A stretch of 64,000 nucleotides of DNA from a phage, in sequence record PZ026127.1, one strand, 5' to 3'. The position numbers were made by a program, and so were the translations under genes. Under the pieces are notes generated by a model, which searched no databases, was not told the origin of the DNA, and was given only the letters and a program-made list of their open reading frames with translations. Shown one piece after another: positions 22,917 through 34,624 of the stretch. Each line of letters starts with the position of its first letter. Position 1 is the first letter of the stretch.

Positions 22917-23582
22917 ATGTTCCATTACACTTATAAAATAACAAACAAAATTAATAATAAAATCTATATAGGTGCCCATTCAACCGAAAATTTGAATGAT
23001 GCATATTTTGGTTCCGGTAAACTCTTGAAAAGGGCCCAGGCCAAATACGGTATAGAAAATTTCTCTAAAGAAATATTAGAGTTCTTTGACGATAAAATCT
23101 CTATGTTTGAGTCAGAAAAGAATATTGTGACTGAAGAGTTTTTAAAGCGCCCCGATGTTTATAATTTGAAATTAGGCGGTGAAGGTGGTTGGGACCATTT
23201 AAACACCGAAGAATATTTAGATAAAAAGAAAGAAGCTTCCTTAAAAGGAGTTGCCGCTTTTAAAACCAGATTTGAGAACGACCCAGACCTTAAAGAAAAA
23301 TATCGTAAAATGGGTTCAGAAAGGTTTAAACAACTTTGGGATAATCCTAAGTATAGAGAGAAATTTTCAAATACTAAATCTTTCTTGGGTAAGACCCATT
23401 CAGATGAAACCAAAAATAAAATGAAAGAATCTCACGCCAGAAATAAACACCAACAAGGTGAAAATAATTCCGGATATGGAAAAATGTGGATTCATTCTTT
23501 AGAAGAAAAAGTTTCTAAACGTATTAACAAAACGGATATTATTCCTGAAGGTTGGAATAAAGGCCGTAAAATAAAATTTTGA
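22917..23582 (+). CDS. segB: GIY-YIG homing endonuclease (Seg-like) in tRNA cluster
   Basis: 221 aa; N-term YTYKITNKINNKIYIGAHS (GIY-x10-YIG variant), C-terminal NUMOD-like GKTHSDETKNKMKESH; lies between two tRNA genes like T4 segB. Confidence 0.75.
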   Translation: MFHYTYKITNKINNKIYIGAHSTENLNDAYFGSGKLLKRAQAKYGIENFSKEILEFFDDKISMFESEKNIVTEEFLKRPDVYNLKLGGEGGWDHLNTEEYLDKKKEASLKGVAAFKTRFENDPDLKEKYRKMGSERFKQLWDNPKYREKFSNTKSFLGKTHSDETKNKMKESHARNKHQQGENNSGYGKMWIHSLEEKVSKRINKTDIIPEGWNKGRKIKF

Positions 23583-23587
23583 ATTAC

Positions 23588-23662
23588 GTCCCGCTGGTGT
23601 AATGGATAGCATACGATCCTTCTAAGTTTGCGGTCCTGGTTCGATCCCAGGGCGGGATACCA
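23588..23662 (+). tRNA. tRNA-Arg (probable anticodon UCU), CCA encoded
   Basis: hand fold: acceptor GTCCCGC/GCGGGAT (one G-U), T-arm CCTGG-TTCGATC-CCAGG, anticodon loop CTTCTAA, 3' ACCA; anticodon stem has one mismatch. Confidence 0.7.
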
Positions 23663-23901
23663 AATGAAGACTATTATATAGTCAAGCCGTCGTATGAAGA
23701 CTGATTACCAGCATTCACCGGCGCAACAAACAAGAAACCGGGTCGCTACCGGTAAGTCGTCGGACTGATGTTCCCTGTTTAAGGACTGACATTAATAAAT
23801 CTTTACGATTTGTTGATGTCCCCTTATATCACAGCAGAAACGGCGCACCGAATTATCGATTCGAGGAAATATCTTTGCCGTAAGCCGAGTAGCGTTTTTG
23901 A

Positions 23902-23993
23902 CGGAACGTTCGGATATGGTCGAGATATGGCCTTTTAAAAATATTGAGTGGCGTCAACTACTTAATAACCGGGTTCGAATCCCGGCGTTTCGT
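23902..23993 (+). ncRNA. tRNA-like element / candidate small stable RNA
   Basis: 7-bp acceptor-like pairing CGGAACG/CGTTTCG enclosing a canonical T-arm CCGGG-TTCGAAT-CCCGG; D and anticodon arms could not be folded confidently. Confidence 0.3.
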
Positions 23994-24044: not shown

Positions 24045-24073
24045 AGCCCCTTCCGAAAGGTTGGGGCTTTTTG
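24045..24073 (+). terminator. intrinsic terminator
   Basis: AGCCCC...GGGGCU hairpin followed by UUUUUGG. Confidence 0.7.
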
Positions 24074-24113
24074 GCATAATAAATAGATAAGTTAATTAAC
24101 TTAGGAAATAACA

Positions 24114-24578
24114 ATGAAAACTTACAATGAATTTTTGACCGAACAATCTAGTTCAGATGTAAAAGCCGCCGCGATTGCAGCAATTCAAGCAGGTAAATAT
24201 TCTTACAAAGACGCCTCTGATGAAGAACGTTTCCGTTTTATTAAAGATTTTAAAGCCGAAGGTTTTACTAATGCTAATACTGTTAGCCGAGTTTTTAAAA
24301 GCCTAGCTGCATCAGGTGAATTGTTCCAGAAAGCCACAGGTAAAGCACCTGCGTCAAAAGCGGACCCTAAAGCCGCTCAAGAAAAAAATATCGCCAAAGG
24401 AATTATTTCTAAGTATGAAGCAATTCTTAAAGAGCTTTTAGTAATCAAAACAGAAGGCCAGAAACTGGCACGAGCACATAGCTTCAAAGATAATCCGCAT
24501 GCTCACGACTTAGAGTATGTTGAAGATATTCAGAAAATCATCAAAGACCGTATCTGGTCTGCTAAACAAATCAAATAA
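24114..24578 (+). CDS. internal head protein with capsid-targeting sequence
   Basis: 154 aa; N-term MKTYNEFLTE (CTS + LTE cleavage motif); strong RBS AGGAAATAACAATG. Confidence 0.7.
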   Translation: MKTYNEFLTEQSSSDVKAAAIAAIQAGKYSYKDASDEERFRFIKDFKAEGFTNANTVSRVFKSLAASGELFQKATGKAPASKADPKAAQEKNIAKGIISKYEAILKELLVIKTEGQKLARAHSFKDNPHAHDLEYVEDIQKIIKDRIWSAKQIK

Positions 24579-24585
24579 CGAAAGC

Positions 24586-24606
24586 CCCGTCTGGGGTTTT
24601 TTGGTT
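24586..24606 (+). terminator. intrinsic terminator
   Basis: AAAGCCCC-GUCU-GGGGUUUUUUGG directly after IP gene. Confidence 0.75.
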
Positions 24607-24692
24607 AACTTAGAGAAATATATGAAACTTTTAAAATAAAGCTATGTTAGCCTTCCATGTAAACCCGTTCCGGTTCTACAAGAACTGATTCT

Positions 24693-24722
24693 AGGCCCTT
24701 CCGAAAGGTTGGGCCTTTTTTG
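24693..24722 (+). terminator. intrinsic terminator (duplicate of the 24045 module)
   Basis: AGGCCC-UUCCGAAAGGUU-GGGCCU + U7; shares CCCTTCCGAAAGGTTGGG with 24048-24066. Confidence 0.7.
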
Positions 24723-26785: not shown

Positions 26786-27131
26786 GCCTAGTAAAACCGA
26801 CCCTGGTTACGCATTAGCAGATTACGATATCTCTATTTCATTATTCCTCGGCATTGCTACTAGTATGACTGCAGGGATAATTGGATTTCTTGTCGGTGGG
26901 ATTATTAATGGTATGCCTCGCCATCCGTTTGAAGATATGAGCCTCGCGTGGATTTGGGTTCCGGCTTTAATAGGATTTTTTATCCCATGGGTCTTTGATA
27001 TTGCCCAAACTAATAAAATAAACAAGCCACGTAAAAAGAGATATGCTTTAGCTATGGCTAATTATAATGAGTATGTAAAACAAACTAAACGTAATGACCT
27101 TGAAACCTTTATTAAGGAATGTAAATCATGA
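26778..27131 (+). CDS. small membrane protein with C-terminal FIKEC motif
   Basis: 117 aa from ATG 26778; two predicted TM helices; C-term ...LETFIKECKS. Confidence 0.5.
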   Translation: MHKPSKTDPGYALADYDISISLFLGIATSMTAGIIGFLVGGIINGMPRHPFEDMSLAWIWVPALIGFFIPWVFDIAQTNKINKPRKKRYALAMANYNEYVKQTKRNDLETFIKECKS

Positions 27132-27418
27132 ATAAAATTGAAATTGAAATCCCGGAACACAATGACGAGAAATCTGCAGAAAAGGCTATCTATGCTCTTC
27201 TGAATAAAGTGAATACCATCGAACATGAATGTGAAGCTATTGCCGATAAGTATGGTATCCAATTCGGTACTGGTGATTATGGTTCAGGCCGTACATATTA
27301 TCCTGTCGGTTATGAATGCTCCCAGTGGTTTAAAGATGAAATTGAAAACAATGGTGGTGAAGTTGAAAATGGCGTCGTTACAGTTGGTGCTTGGATCTCC
27401 TCTTCGGCAATGTGCTAA
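27128..27418 (+). CDS. small protein, paralog 1 of 4 (C-terminal WISSSAMC)
   Basis: 96 aa; shares GxGxxYYxPG core and W-x-SS-x-x-C terminus with the next three ORFs. Confidence 0.6.
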   Translation: MNKIEIEIPEHNDEKSAEKAIYALLNKVNTIEHECEAIADKYGIQFGTGDYGSGRTYYPVGYECSQWFKDEIENNGGEVENGVVTVGAWISSSAMC

Positions 27419-27427
27419 GGAAACGCT

Positions 27428-27709
27428 ATGATGAATGATTACCATAAAAATAAAGAATTGGCTGAAGCAGTAAATGATATCCATAAAGCTATTCGTCGTG
27501 CCGAGGAAATTGCAAACAAATATGAGACTCATTTTAATATATACCCTGCTCGCGGTATGGGCGGTGACTATTATTCTCCTGGCGCCTTGAAAGCCGACCT
27601 TGCCCACTGGGAAGAATACGGTGAAGCTCAGTACGCTATTGTAAACCAACATGATTACACTACCAGCCTAGAAAATGGCGGTTGGGTGTCCTCTTCTTCT
27701 GAATGTTAA
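27428..27709 (+). CDS. small protein, paralog 2 of 4 (C-terminal WVSSSSEC)
   Basis: 93 aa; RBS TAAGGAAAC...ATG; conserved motifs as paralog 1. Confidence 0.6.
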   Translation: MMNDYHKNKELAEAVNDIHKAIRRAEEIANKYETHFNIYPARGMGGDYYSPGALKADLAHWEEYGEAQYAIVNQHDYTTSLENGGWVSSSSEC

Positions 27710-27718
27710 GGAAATAAA

Positions 27719-27931
27719 ATGACTATTGATGAAATTGAAAACCAAATCCGTGAATTAGTACGTAAAGGCCAGTCTGTGGCTGACGAAACGGGTGAAGAGT
27801 TCCGTGTTTCTGGTCGTGGAGAATACATTTCTCCAAAGAACCCGGAATATGATGATTACGAATGGGTCCGTGATGATTACGGCATTCCTGATGGTGATGG
27901 TTTCTGGTTTACTTCTTCTATGTCTTGCTAA
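27719..27931 (+). CDS. small protein, paralog 3 of 4 (C-terminal WFTSSMSC)
   Basis: 70 aa; RBS TAAGGAAATAAAATG. Confidence 0.6.
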   Translation: MTIDEIENQIRELVRKGQSVADETGEEFRVSGRGEYISPKNPEYDDYEWVRDDYGIPDGDGFWFTSSMSC

Positions 27932-27941
27932 GGAAATAAAA

Positions 27942-28166
27942 ATGTCTGATATTAATGAATTAGAAAAAGCTGCTCTTGAACTGGCTGCACTGTATAAGAA
28001 AGTAAAAGATATGGCTTCTGCCCAGGATTTCGGTGTTGAGCTCGATGATTATGACGGTGAAGTTCGTCTCGAAGATTGGCTGAATAGCTCTTGTTATGGT
28101 GAAGAAGCTGGTCGCACCTTCGTTGCTCAGGCCGATGGTAAAATCTGGTATCCGAGCTCATGCTAA
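27942..28166 (+). CDS. small protein, paralog 4 of 4 (C-terminal IWYPSSC)
   Basis: 74 aa from ATG 27942 after TAAGGAAATAAAAATG (ORF-track start 27792 would overlap paralog 3). Confidence 0.55.
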   Translation: MSDINELEKAALELAALYKKVKDMASAQDFGVELDDYDGEVRLEDWLNSSCYGEEAGRTFVAQADGKIWYPSSC

Positions 28167-33998: not shown

Positions 33999-34358
33999 AT
34001 GAAAACTTACCAACAATTTATTACTGAATCTACTCAGCGCATTAACGAAGCTATGTCTCCTGAACAATTGGCTAAGGCTAAAGAAGGGCTGAACCCATCT
34101 GAAGTTTTTAAAGTTACAGGTAAAGACTTTGCTTCCATGGCCACTAACCAAAGTCTGGCTAAAGAACTTAAATCTAAATCTAACTTCATTCATGCTACAT
34201 GGAATGGTGATTCTCTTACTTCAATAAGCGTGTACAATAAAAAAGGTCTCCTTAAGAGCTCTTATGGCGCTGATGCCATCCGTGTTTCTAAATCAGATTG
34301 GCATAAAAACACTACTAAAGCAGAAAAACCTCATAACCCAGCCCTTGACCATCTTTAA
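33999..34358 (+). CDS. internal head protein with capsid-targeting sequence
   Basis: 119 aa; N-term MKTYQQFITES; RBS AAGGAATAATATG. Confidence 0.65.
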   Translation: MKTYQQFITESTQRINEAMSPEQLAKAKEGLNPSEVFKVTGKDFASMATNQSLAKELKSKSNFIHATWNGDSLTSISVYNKKGLLKSSYGADAIRVSKSDWHKNTTKAEKPHNPALDHL

Positions 34359-34366
34359 GGAATAAT

Positions 34367-34624
34367 ATGAAAACTTATCAAGAATTTATTACAGAATCCA
34401 CTTTAGTTTCTAAACGTTGGAATATGATTGTAAACGTTAAACCTTCCGGCACTGAAGTTTCTATGGCCGACCCTAATGATGACGAACTTGAGCACGCTTT
34501 TAGCTCTAAAGAAACTGACGAGAAAGTGGTTAAGCAACTGGTTGCTGATGCAGACCAACTTCGTAAAGTAGCAGATGTTGTTAAGCTGTTTACTAAGAAA
34601 GGTTTTAAACACGAAGAACGTTAA
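34367..34624 (+). CDS. internal head protein with capsid-targeting sequence
   Basis: 85 aa; N-term MKTYQEFITES; RBS AAGGAATAATATG identical to the preceding gene. Confidence 0.65.
   Translation: MKTYQEFITESTLVSKRWNMIVNVKPSGTEVSMADPNDDELEHAFSSKETDEKVVKQLVADADQLRKVADVVKLFTKKGFKHEER

What the first reader, a model, noticed from the sequence alone, without database searches (positions are those of the whole stretch)
24114..24578. Additional CTS-bearing internal protein just after the tRNA cluster
The 154-aa ORF begins MKTYNEFLTE, a capsid-targeting leader with an LTE cleavage site. It is flanked by intrinsic terminators on both sides, so it looks like a self-contained cassette. T4 has three internal proteins, whereas this window alone encodes five candidates, suggesting an expanded repertoire of injected proteins.
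Basis: partly seen in the sequence, partly recalled or inferred. Interest (0 to 1): 0.5.

Follow-up and report, generated by a model that had tools for sequence, protein, structure and literature searches.

The report
Unannotated T4-type injected head protein
This gene of a T4-like phage very probably encodes one more of the small "internal proteins" that are packed into the phage head and injected with the DNA. The kind is well known; this family (phrog_2280) had simply never been labelled as such.

Summary
ORF 24114-24578 (+) encodes 154 aa starting MKTYNEFLTE. The motif K[TS][YF]x[EQ]F occurs five times in all six frames of the window, each time right after a start Met; 0.21 are expected by chance. 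Residues Y4, F7, L8 and E10 match the positions shown experimentally in T4 IPIII to drive capsid targeting and gp21 cleavage.

The leader persists in homologs only about 25% identical overall. A late-promoter motif sits 26-40 nt upstream in orthologs (TATAAATA); the window has AATAAATA. Terminator hairpins flank the gene. T4 and PST lack the gene and carry one copy of the flanking terminator repeat.

A 70%-identical ortholog, Yersinia phage fD1 Gp140, was detected in purified virions, but that dataset has low specificity.

The family is phrog_2280, "unknown function". It occurs in 511 phage records, and every record inspected calls it hypothetical. No fold or domain match gives a function.

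The mature product is predicted to be a 144-aa, 15.9-kDa, basic, all-helical two-domain protein. An anti-defence role is inferred by analogy with Ip1-3, which inhibit GmrSD.

The "expanded repertoire" is long known: at least 10 Ip families were reported in 1994. Verdict: a new member of a known kind, of modest interest.

The parts
24045..24072 (+). Upstream intrinsic terminator-like hairpin (AGCCCC-TT-CC GAAA GG-TT-GGGGCT) plus U5. It is copy 1 of a 29-nt direct repeat and corresponds to the terminator downstream of rnaC in T4.
   Evidence: Fold -16 to -18 kcal/mol, z -2.3. Repeat family D1. Inside the 93%-identical alignment to the T4 tRNA-Arg/rnaD/rnaC segment. Annotated as a terminator in PhAPEC2.
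24078..24085 (+). Late-promoter-like motif AATAAATA, a 7/8 match to the T4 late consensus TATAAATA, 28 nt before the ATG.
   Evidence: At the aligned position the orthologs in WG01, RB51 and KpV477 have exact TATAAATA, and PhAPEC2 has AATAAATA. Remote homologs have CATAAATA or GATAAATA. Only 3 TATAAATA and 3 AATAAATA occur on the + strand of the whole window. Promoter activity was not tested.
24103..24106 (+). Shine-Dalgarno AGGA, with a 7-nt spacer to the ATG.
   Evidence: Read directly from the sequence. Conserved as TAGGAAAT in orthologs.
24114..24143 (+). Codons 1-10, MKTYNEFLTE: predicted capsid-targeting sequence (propeptide). gp21 cleavage is predicted after Glu10 (L8-T9-E10).
   Evidence: Y4 and F7 (targeting) and position 8 and E10 (processing) match the mutational analysis of the IPIII CTS summarised in PMC9026906. 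Across family members down to 25% identity, position 4 is aromatic, F7 is invariant and the L/V-x-E is kept.
24144..24575 (+). Predicted mature protein: 144 aa, 15.9 kDa, pI 9.5. It has an N-terminal three-helix domain (residues 13-67), a Lys/Pro/Ala-rich linker (77-85) and a C-terminal helical hairpin (85-151).
   Evidence: Physical properties. AlphaFold2 model, mean pLDDT 72.7. Purifying selection: the C-domain is 95% identical in protein with 22 synonymous codon changes against RB51. Family phrog_2280, E 5.7e-53.
24576..24578 (+). Stop codon TAA.
24581..24603 (+). Downstream intrinsic terminator-like hairpin (AAAGCCCC GUCU GGGGUUU) with a U-tract. It is a shortened variant of the flanking repeat.
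   Evidence: Fold -13.4 kcal/mol, z -2.9. In PhAPEC2 and RB51 this position holds the full CCGAAAGG-type hairpin.
24692..24720 (+). Copy 2 of the 29-nt terminator repeat (93% identical to copy 1), followed by an early-type promoter (GTTTAC...TACTAT) for the e.8 homolog. It marks the distal boundary of the indel relative to T4.
   Evidence: T4 has a single copy, which aligns to both window copies. The RB51 GenBank note reads 'flanked by 34 bp imperfect direct repeat'.

Best explanation
ORF 24114-24578 encodes a previously unlabelled T4-type internal (injected) head protein of family phrog_2280.

Proposed mechanism, with the basis for each step:
1. The gene sits behind the rnaC terminator and is transcribed late from its own gp55-type late promoter (AATAAATA at 24078-24085). 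Inferred from the motif and its conservation.
2. The 10-residue leader MKTYNEFLTE directs the precursor into the scaffolding core of the prohead. Inferred: in T4 the leader alone is sufficient to package foreign proteins.
3. The prohead protease gp21 cuts after Glu10 (L-T-E | Q) and releases a basic 144-aa, 15.9-kDa helical protein that stays with the DNA. Inferred from the L/I-x-E rule.
4. The protein is ejected into the cell with the DNA and acts before any phage gene is expressed, most likely by binding and blocking a host first-line defence such as a variant Type IV (GmrSD-like) restriction enzyme. This is analogy only, and is the weakest step.

The gene is a dispensable cassette gained or lost by recombination between the repeated terminator sequences that flank it.
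For: - Leader specificity: 5 motif hits in the window, all at ORF starts, against 0.21 expected.
- All four functionally mapped CTS positions (4, 7, 8, 10) conform (PMC9026906). The CTS alone packages GFP, nuclease and other foreign proteins.
- The leader is retained in homologs at 25-48% identity. F7 is one of only 4 invariant columns.
- Late-promoter motif at the same place in five genera or clades.
- The ortholog fD1 Gp140 (about 70% identical) was detected by LC-MS/MS in purified virions at the strict threshold (PMC8309999 Table S3).
- The mature part is basic (pI 9.5), like the window's IPIII homolog (pI 9.5).
- It is a real gene under selection.
- It is absent from T4 and PST, which have a single repeat copy at the empty site, so it is non-essential like the other IPs.
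- All three T4 Ips inhibit distinct GmrSD variants (PMC12373910).
- Tandem paralogs with the same leader exist in PhAPEC2 and KY593455, and the N-domain evolves fast. Both fit an arms-race protein.
Against: - There is no direct evidence for packaging, cleavage or injection in this phage.
- The fD1 proteome called 113-137 of 277 phage proteins, plus 672 host proteins, virion-associated. These include DenV, lysozyme and NudE, so it discriminates poorly.
- The window's promoter motif is 7/8, not the canonical TATAAATA.
- T4 ipI, ipII and ipIII have early promoters directly upstream and no late promoter of their own, so the expression pattern here differs from the canonical IPs.
- Silas et al. found no target for ip4-10, so an anti-GmrSD role cannot be assumed for every Ip.
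- A second L-x-E (L105-K106-E107) might also be cut, so the mature size is uncertain.
Confidence: 0.75

Rival explanations
1. It is a packaged internal protein, but its role is structural or physical rather than anti-defence. As a lysine-rich basic helical protein it would neutralise or organise packaged DNA, or assist scaffolding-core assembly or DNA ejection.
For: pI 9.5, with 26 K+R in 144 aa and a K/P/A-rich linker. Solid-state NMR showed that lysines of T4 internal proteins contact DNA phosphates (PMC3012670). The C-terminal hairpin is under strong purifying selection (95% identity), as expected for a structural interaction. ip4-10 had no detectable defence target.
Against: The gene is dispensable: T4 and PST lack it. 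The N-domain evolves fast and tandem paralogs exist, which fits antagonistic co-evolution better. Every T4 Ip with a known function is a defence inhibitor.
Confidence: 0.15
2. It is not packaged. It is a cytoplasmic late protein whose 5' end resembles IP genes because the conserved RBS and leader DNA serve as a recombination joint when cassettes are shuffled. The leader would then be a hitch-hiking relic.
For: IP genes share 5' DNA (ATGAAAACTTA...). The gene is a repeat-flanked cassette in a hyperplastic region. Recombination at conserved regulatory motifs is documented in T4-like phages (PMC4122927).
Against: A relic would decay. Instead the key residues (aromatic at 4, F7, L/V8, E10) persist in homologs whose DNA and mature protein have diverged to 25-35% identity. 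A functional CTS is by itself sufficient for packaging of any protein made during head assembly. The ortholog was detected in virions.
Confidence: 0.07
3. It is not a real gene: a chance ORF in an intergenic spacer between rnaC and e.8.
For: It is absent from T4 and PST. All database copies are 'hypothetical'.
Against: 511 phage records carry it, 470 of them over at least 80% of its length. Synonymous changes far exceed non-synonymous ones in the C-domain. It has an RBS, a promoter motif and terminators. Ortholog peptides were detected by mass spectrometry.
Confidence: 0.01

Closest known systems
T4 internal proteins IPII and IPIII (Ip2, Ip3)
   Same: A 10-residue leader of the same pattern, ending in (I/L)-x-E (T4: MKTYQEFIAE; here: MKTYNEFLTE). 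A small basic mature protein. A non-essential gene in a hyperplastic region on the same strand. Presence varies among T-even phages.
   Different: No sequence or fold similarity beyond the leader. A different locus (rnaC-e.8, not e-denV). It has its own late-type promoter and an upstream terminator, rather than the early GTTTAC promoter found directly upstream of T4 ipII and ipIII. The target is unknown, whereas Ip2 and Ip3 inhibit the GmrSD variants of ECOR21 and ECOR17.
T4 IPI (Ip1), inhibitor of the GmrS/GmrD Type IV restriction enzyme
   Same: An injected-protein paradigm: an N-terminal propeptide is removed by gp21, and the mature protein acts in the newly infected cell.
   Different: IPI has a longer leader (MKTFKEFTSTTT...) and a compact alpha/beta fold. 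This protein is predicted to be all-helical with two domains, and is twice the size.
Ip4-Ip12 of T-even relatives (Repoila et al. 1994), and IpIV-IpVI of Yersinia phage PST
   Same: Leader-defined families that are otherwise unrelated and are swapped between related phages. PST IpIV, IpV and IpVI begin MKTYQEFITE, MKTFKEFATK and MKTFKEFIAE.
   Different: Those lie at the ipI locus (57B-trna.4) or the ipIII locus. PST IpIV (also 157 aa) is unrelated in sequence. The phrog_2280 family is not annotated as an Ip in any record or cluster inspected, and PHROGs lists it as 'unknown function'. The original 1994 sequences could not be retrieved for direct comparison.
RB69ORF149c / PhAPEC2_133 family
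   Same: Same PHROG (phrog_2280, E 1.6e-53), same leader (MKTYAEFLTE) and same locus, adjacent in tandem to the ortholog in PhAPEC2. It is linked by transitive BLASTP through a KY593455 paralog.
   Different: Direct pairwise similarity to the window protein is limited to the 10-residue leader. That gene is not present in the window, where the neighbouring slot holds only the relic of a different, deleted gene.
PeSL promoter-terminator cassettes of T4-like phages (Arbiol 2010; Comeau 2014)
   Same: A variable gene bounded by repeated stem-loop regulatory sequences in a hyperplastic region. Copy 2 of the repeat is followed by an early promoter, as in a PeSL.
   Different: Copy 1 is followed by a late-type rather than an early promoter. 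The stem-loop sequence (GCCCC..CCGAAAGG..GGGGC) is not the AGNA-loop-TCNT form reported for the PST/T4 pair. Recombination at the repeat is inferred only from the presence/absence polymorphism.

Membership tests
T4-type internal (capsid-targeted, injected) proteins | N-terminal capsid-targeting sequence of about 10 residues, with an aromatic residue at position 4 and Phe at position 7 (the targeting determinants) | tested here: met
   MKTYNEFLTE has Y4 and F7. The determinants are those described in PMC9026906. The motif is 5/5 at ORF starts against 0.21 expected, and is conserved in remote homologs.
T4-type internal (capsid-targeted, injected) proteins | gp21 prohead-protease site L/I-x-E at the end of the leader (positions 8 and 10 govern processing) | tested here: met
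   L8-T9-E10. Rule from PMC9026906. Orthologs have LTE, LNE or LAE. Actual cleavage was not tested.
T4-type internal (capsid-targeted, injected) proteins | Made while proheads assemble (late expression) | tested here: inconclusive
   AATAAATA (7/8 of the late consensus) lies 28 nt upstream, and orthologs have exact TATAAATA. There are no transcript data. Canonical T4 ip genes use early promoters plus read-through.
T4-type internal (capsid-targeted, injected) proteins | Physically present in purified virions | tested here: inconclusive
   Literature only, and for an ortholog. fD1 Gp140 is flagged PPAP by LC-MS/MS, but 41-49% of all fD1 proteins were flagged, including DenV, lysozyme and NudE.
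T4-type internal (capsid-targeted, injected) proteins | Propeptide removed in the mature virion, and protein ejected into the host with the DNA | not testable with these tools
   This needs semi-tryptic mass spectrometry of virions and an injection assay.
T4-type internal (capsid-targeted, injected) proteins | Non-essential, with presence varying between close relatives | tested here: met
   Absent from T4 and PST. Present in 511 records, while 769 records match the surrounding 1.2 kb.
Ip1/Ip2/Ip3-type inhibitors of GmrSD Type IV restriction enzymes | Sequence or structural homology of the mature region to Ip1, Ip2 or Ip3 | tested here: not met
   PHROG hits to IP families cover only residues 1-44 or less, at E 7e-4 or worse. 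No PDB or BFVD fold match other than to its own family.
Ip1/Ip2/Ip3-type inhibitors of GmrSD Type IV restriction enzymes | Relieves restriction by a specific GmrSD variant | not testable with these tools
   This needs plaque assays. ip4-10 gave no reproducible interaction in Silas et al., and this family was apparently not among those tested.
PeSL-type mobile regulatory cassette | Variable gene bounded by conserved stem-loop plus early-promoter composites, with the indel breakpoints in those motifs | tested here: inconclusive
   The direct repeat of the stem-loop bounds the indel relative to T4. Only the distal copy carries an early promoter, and the stem-loop sequence differs from published PeSL consensus sequences.

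The most novel reading that the evidence does not exclude
phrog_2280 marks a third, unrecognised internal-protein locus (rnaC-e.8) in T-even phages of at least four genera. Its tandem, fast-evolving paralogs would be late-expressed, injected inhibitors of a host defence that is not one of the GmrSD variants blocked by Ip1-3. That defence could be a different class of first-response immunity, which would explain why the family spans phages with glucosyl-hmC and arabinosyl-hmC DNA.
Probability: 0.3. Interest if true: 0.55.

Novelty: new member of a known kind. Interest (0 to 1): 0.3.

Why it matters
Injected internal proteins are the first phage factors to meet host immunity. All three T4 Ips were recently shown to be specific inhibitors of Type IV restriction enzymes. 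Labelling a widespread "hypothetical" family (511 phage genomes, many of them therapeutic candidates) as a probable Ip adds a concrete candidate anti-defence gene and a third Ip locus to screen. It also gives a simple rule for finding more: the leader motif at an ORF start. It does not change the concepts. Variable Ip repertoires and cassette shuffling in T-even phages are established.

Tried and rejected
- Exhaustive HMMER search of 1.84 billion representatives: only 11 hits, all phage family members, fragments or chimeras, plus one spurious repeat protein.
- PST 'IpIV' has the same length (157 aa) as the Tequatrovirus orthologs, so identity was suspected. Translation shows it is unrelated.
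- The sequence TTAACTTAGAGAAATATATGAAACTT downstream of the gene was suspected to be the relic of another IP gene's 5' end. It is in fact the start of a WG01_138-like membrane-protein gene whose interior is deleted in the window.
- The simple terminator scan missed the + strand hairpins, so folding was used instead.
- Rfam does not recognise rnaC or rnaD, so BLAST to T4 was used.
- Literature searches for RB32ORF132c, ORF149c and Sf22 proteomics gave nothing. The fPS-2 paper has no proteome. Repoila 1994 is not held in the library.

Full report
**1. What is there**

ORF 24114-24578 (+ strand) encodes 154 aa beginning MKTYNEFLTEQSSSDVK.

The window is from a T-even phage. The 1.2 kb around the ORF is 96-98% identical to Escherichia phages fDHCT2, WG01 and QL01 (the latter two Dhakavirus), and about 94% identical over 72% of it to Mosigvirus phages such as PhAPEC2.

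The gene order follows T4:
- 57B homolog (20588)
- a leader-bearing ORF at the ipI position (21051)
- trna.4, trna.3 and trna.2 homologs
- tRNA-Met
- a segB-like GIY-YIG gene (22917-23582)
- tRNA-Arg (23588-23662)
- homologs of the T4 stable RNAs rnaD and rnaC (about 23730-23993)
- a terminator
- the ORF in question
- the e.8 homolog (24810)

So the ORF is indeed "just after the tRNA cluster", but more precisely after rnaC.

**2. The leader is real**

The motif K[TS][YF]x[EQ]F occurs five times in all six reading frames of the 64-kb window. Each occurrence directly follows the start Met of a + strand ORF (21051, 24114, 32870, 33999, 34367). Shuffled sequence gives a mean of 0.21 occurrences.

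The review of Black's work (PMC9026906) reports three relevant facts:
- The first 10 residues of IPIII are sufficient for incorporation into the head.
- Targeting depends mainly on residues 4 and 7, and processing on residues 8 and 10.
- gp21 cuts after Glu in the motif L/I-x-E.

Here the residues are Y4, F7, L8 and E10, so all four conform.

The leader survives where the rest of the protein has diverged. In an alignment of eight family members down to 25% identity, only four columns are invariant, and they include M1 and F7. Position 4 is always Y or F, and an L/V/I-x-E follows. This argues against a coincidental or decaying N-terminal match.

**3. Expression signals and cassette structure**

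Folding confirms G+C-rich hairpins with U-tracts on both sides: 24045-24072 upstream and 24581-24603 downstream. The PhAPEC2 record annotates ARNold terminators at both positions around the ortholog.

Between the upstream terminator and the RBS (AGGA, 24103-24106) lies AATAAATA (24078-24085). At the aligned position WG01, RB51 and the Klebsiella phage KpV477 have exact TATAAATA, the T4 late-promoter consensus. Remote metagenomic homologs have CATAAATA or GATAAATA at a similar distance. Such octamers are rare in the window, with 3 TATAAATA and 3 AATAAATA on the + strand.

By contrast, T4 ipI, ipII and ipIII have early GTTTAC-type promoters directly upstream and no late promoter of their own. 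This gene is therefore predicted to be late-only, which is a difference from the canonical IPs.

The upstream hairpin is repeated at 24692-24720 (29 nt, 93% identical, 648 nt away), where an early-type promoter for e.8 follows it. T4 and PST lack the gene and have a single copy of this sequence. The RB51 record already notes that the gene is "flanked by 34 bp imperfect direct repeat".

The "self-contained cassette" reading is therefore reasonable. It resembles the promoter/stem-loop-mediated shuffling described for T4-like phages (PMC4122927), although the motif differs from the published PeSL consensus sequences. In every context examined the gene sits at the same syntenic position (after the tRNA/rnaC region and before e.8 or e.6). 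It is therefore an indel at a fixed locus rather than a roaming element.

**4. The family**

The protein matches phrog_2280 ("unknown function") at E 5.7e-53. Matches to PHROGs annotated as internal virion proteins cover only the leader region.

tblastn finds it in 511 phage records. About 72 are at least 90% identical (Dhakavirus and Mosigvirus types). About 400 are roughly 70% identical (Tequatrovirus: RB51, RB32, PP01, fD1 and others). About 40 Klebsiella phage records match only residues about 4-73.

Every annotation inspected is "hypothetical" or "uncharacterized".

An exhaustive profile search of 1.84 billion representatives found only 11 hits: phage members, truncations and chimeras.

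The neighbouring gene in PhAPEC2 (PhAPEC2_133, similar to RB69ORF149c) also begins MKTYAEFLTE and belongs to the same PHROG. Phage KY593455 carries two members in tandem. The rnaC-e.8 interval is thus a third locus for leader-bearing proteins, with paralog turnover.

**5. The mature protein**

Cleavage after E10 would give 144 aa, 15.9 kDa, pI 9.5.

AlphaFold2 (7-sequence alignment, mean pLDDT 72.7) predicts:
- a disordered leader
- a three-helix N-domain (residues 13-67)
- a low-confidence K/P/A-rich linker (77-85)
- a long C-terminal helical hairpin (85-151)

Against the RB51 ortholog, the N-domain is 63% identical and the C-domain 95% identical in protein, at comparable synonymous divergence: 21 of 41 against 22 of 59 identical-residue codons changed. 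The gene is therefore under selection, with a fast-evolving N-domain and a constrained C-domain.

The Klebsiella phage version consists of the N-domain alone, and some homologs carry other C-terminal parts. A second L-x-E (residues 105-107) could be another gp21 site. Whether it is cut is unknown.

**6. Experimental evidence from the literature**

Yersinia phage fD1 g140 is a 157-aa ortholog. Table S3 of PMC8309999 flags it "PPAP", meaning detected by LC-MS/MS in ultracentrifuge-purified virions at the strict threshold.

That study flagged 113-137 of 277 phage proteins and 672 host proteins. In the same genome stretch DenV, lysozyme e and NudE are also flagged.

On function, Ip1 inhibits GmrSD of strain CT596, and Silas et al. 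2025 showed that Ip2 and Ip3 inhibit other GmrSD variants. Their tests of ip4-10 found no targets. Srikant et al. 2022 showed that leaderless IPIII acts in the host cytoplasm. An anti-defence role for the present protein is an analogy, not a result.

**7. Comparison, novelty and verdict**

The protein meets the sequence-level defining features of a T4-type internal protein: the leader, the protease site and dispensability. Late expression and virion presence are supported indirectly. Processing and injection are untested. It is not a homolog of Ip1, Ip2 or Ip3.

The "expanded repertoire" is a long-known property of T-even phages (Repoila 1994, as cited in PMC12373910; PMC4122927; PMC3012670). 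The difference here is small, five against three.

What is new is modest. A widespread family catalogued as "unknown function" can be assigned to the internal-protein class. It also defines a third Ip locus, with its own late-type promoter.

I rate it a new member of a known kind, with interest about 0.3.

Noticed in passing
window 24622-24688: Relic of a deleted gene. A 5-codon ORF (MKLLK*) and a 14-codon tail (MLAFHVNPFRFYKN*) match the start and end of the 184-aa membrane-like protein WG01_138. The window is about 490 bp shorter here than WG01, QL01 and UGJNEcP3.
   Followed up: partly
window 23668-23993: Homologs of the T4 stable RNAs rnaD and rnaC (93% identical to T4) follow tRNA-Arg, with about 60 extra nt (23668-23726) that are not in T4. 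Rfam has no model that detects them. Some phage records annotate a protein CDS ('RB69ORF150c') over this RNA region.
   Followed up: partly
L001 3983-4546 (PhAPEC2_133); L012 3422-3991 and 4001-4537 (KY593455): The gene next to the ortholog in Mosigvirus phages (RB69ORF149c family) also starts MKTYAEFLTE and falls in the same phrog_2280. Another phage has two members in tandem (leaders MLQYNEFLKE and MLEYSEFLKE). This points to a paralogous, leader-bearing family at the rnaC-e.8 locus.
   Followed up: partly
window 33999-34358 and 34367-34624: Two further leader-bearing ORFs lie after denV: MKTYQQFITE (119 aa, phrog_3966 'unknown function') and MKTYQEFITE (85 aa, with only weak, leader-level PHROG matches). 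In T4, ipII lies before denV, so the order differs.
   Followed up: no
window 27128-28166: Four tandem small ORFs (about 70-96 aa) all end with a similar C-terminal motif, W-x-S/T-S-x(0-2)-C (…WISSSAMC, …WVSSSSEC, …WFTSSMSC, …WYPSSC). This is a locally amplified family of unknown function.
   Followed up: no
protein P0009 (metagenome, 94 aa): A chimeric protein joins a Trna.3-like N-terminal part to the last 31 residues of this family. This implies a deletion that fused trna.3 to the 3' end of the gene in some phage.
   Followed up: no
window 24114-24575 against L003 3001-3471 (RB51): There is a strong asymmetry of protein divergence within the gene. The N-domain is 63% identical and the C-terminal hairpin 95% identical, at similar synonymous divergence. 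Tequatrovirus orthologs also carry a 5-residue duplication that gives two L-N-E sites in the leader (FLNEAVLNE).
   Followed up: partly
window 22917-23582: A SegB-like GIY-YIG homing endonuclease gene lies between tRNA-Met and tRNA-Arg. The window has only 2 tRNA genes, where T4 has 8.
   Followed up: no
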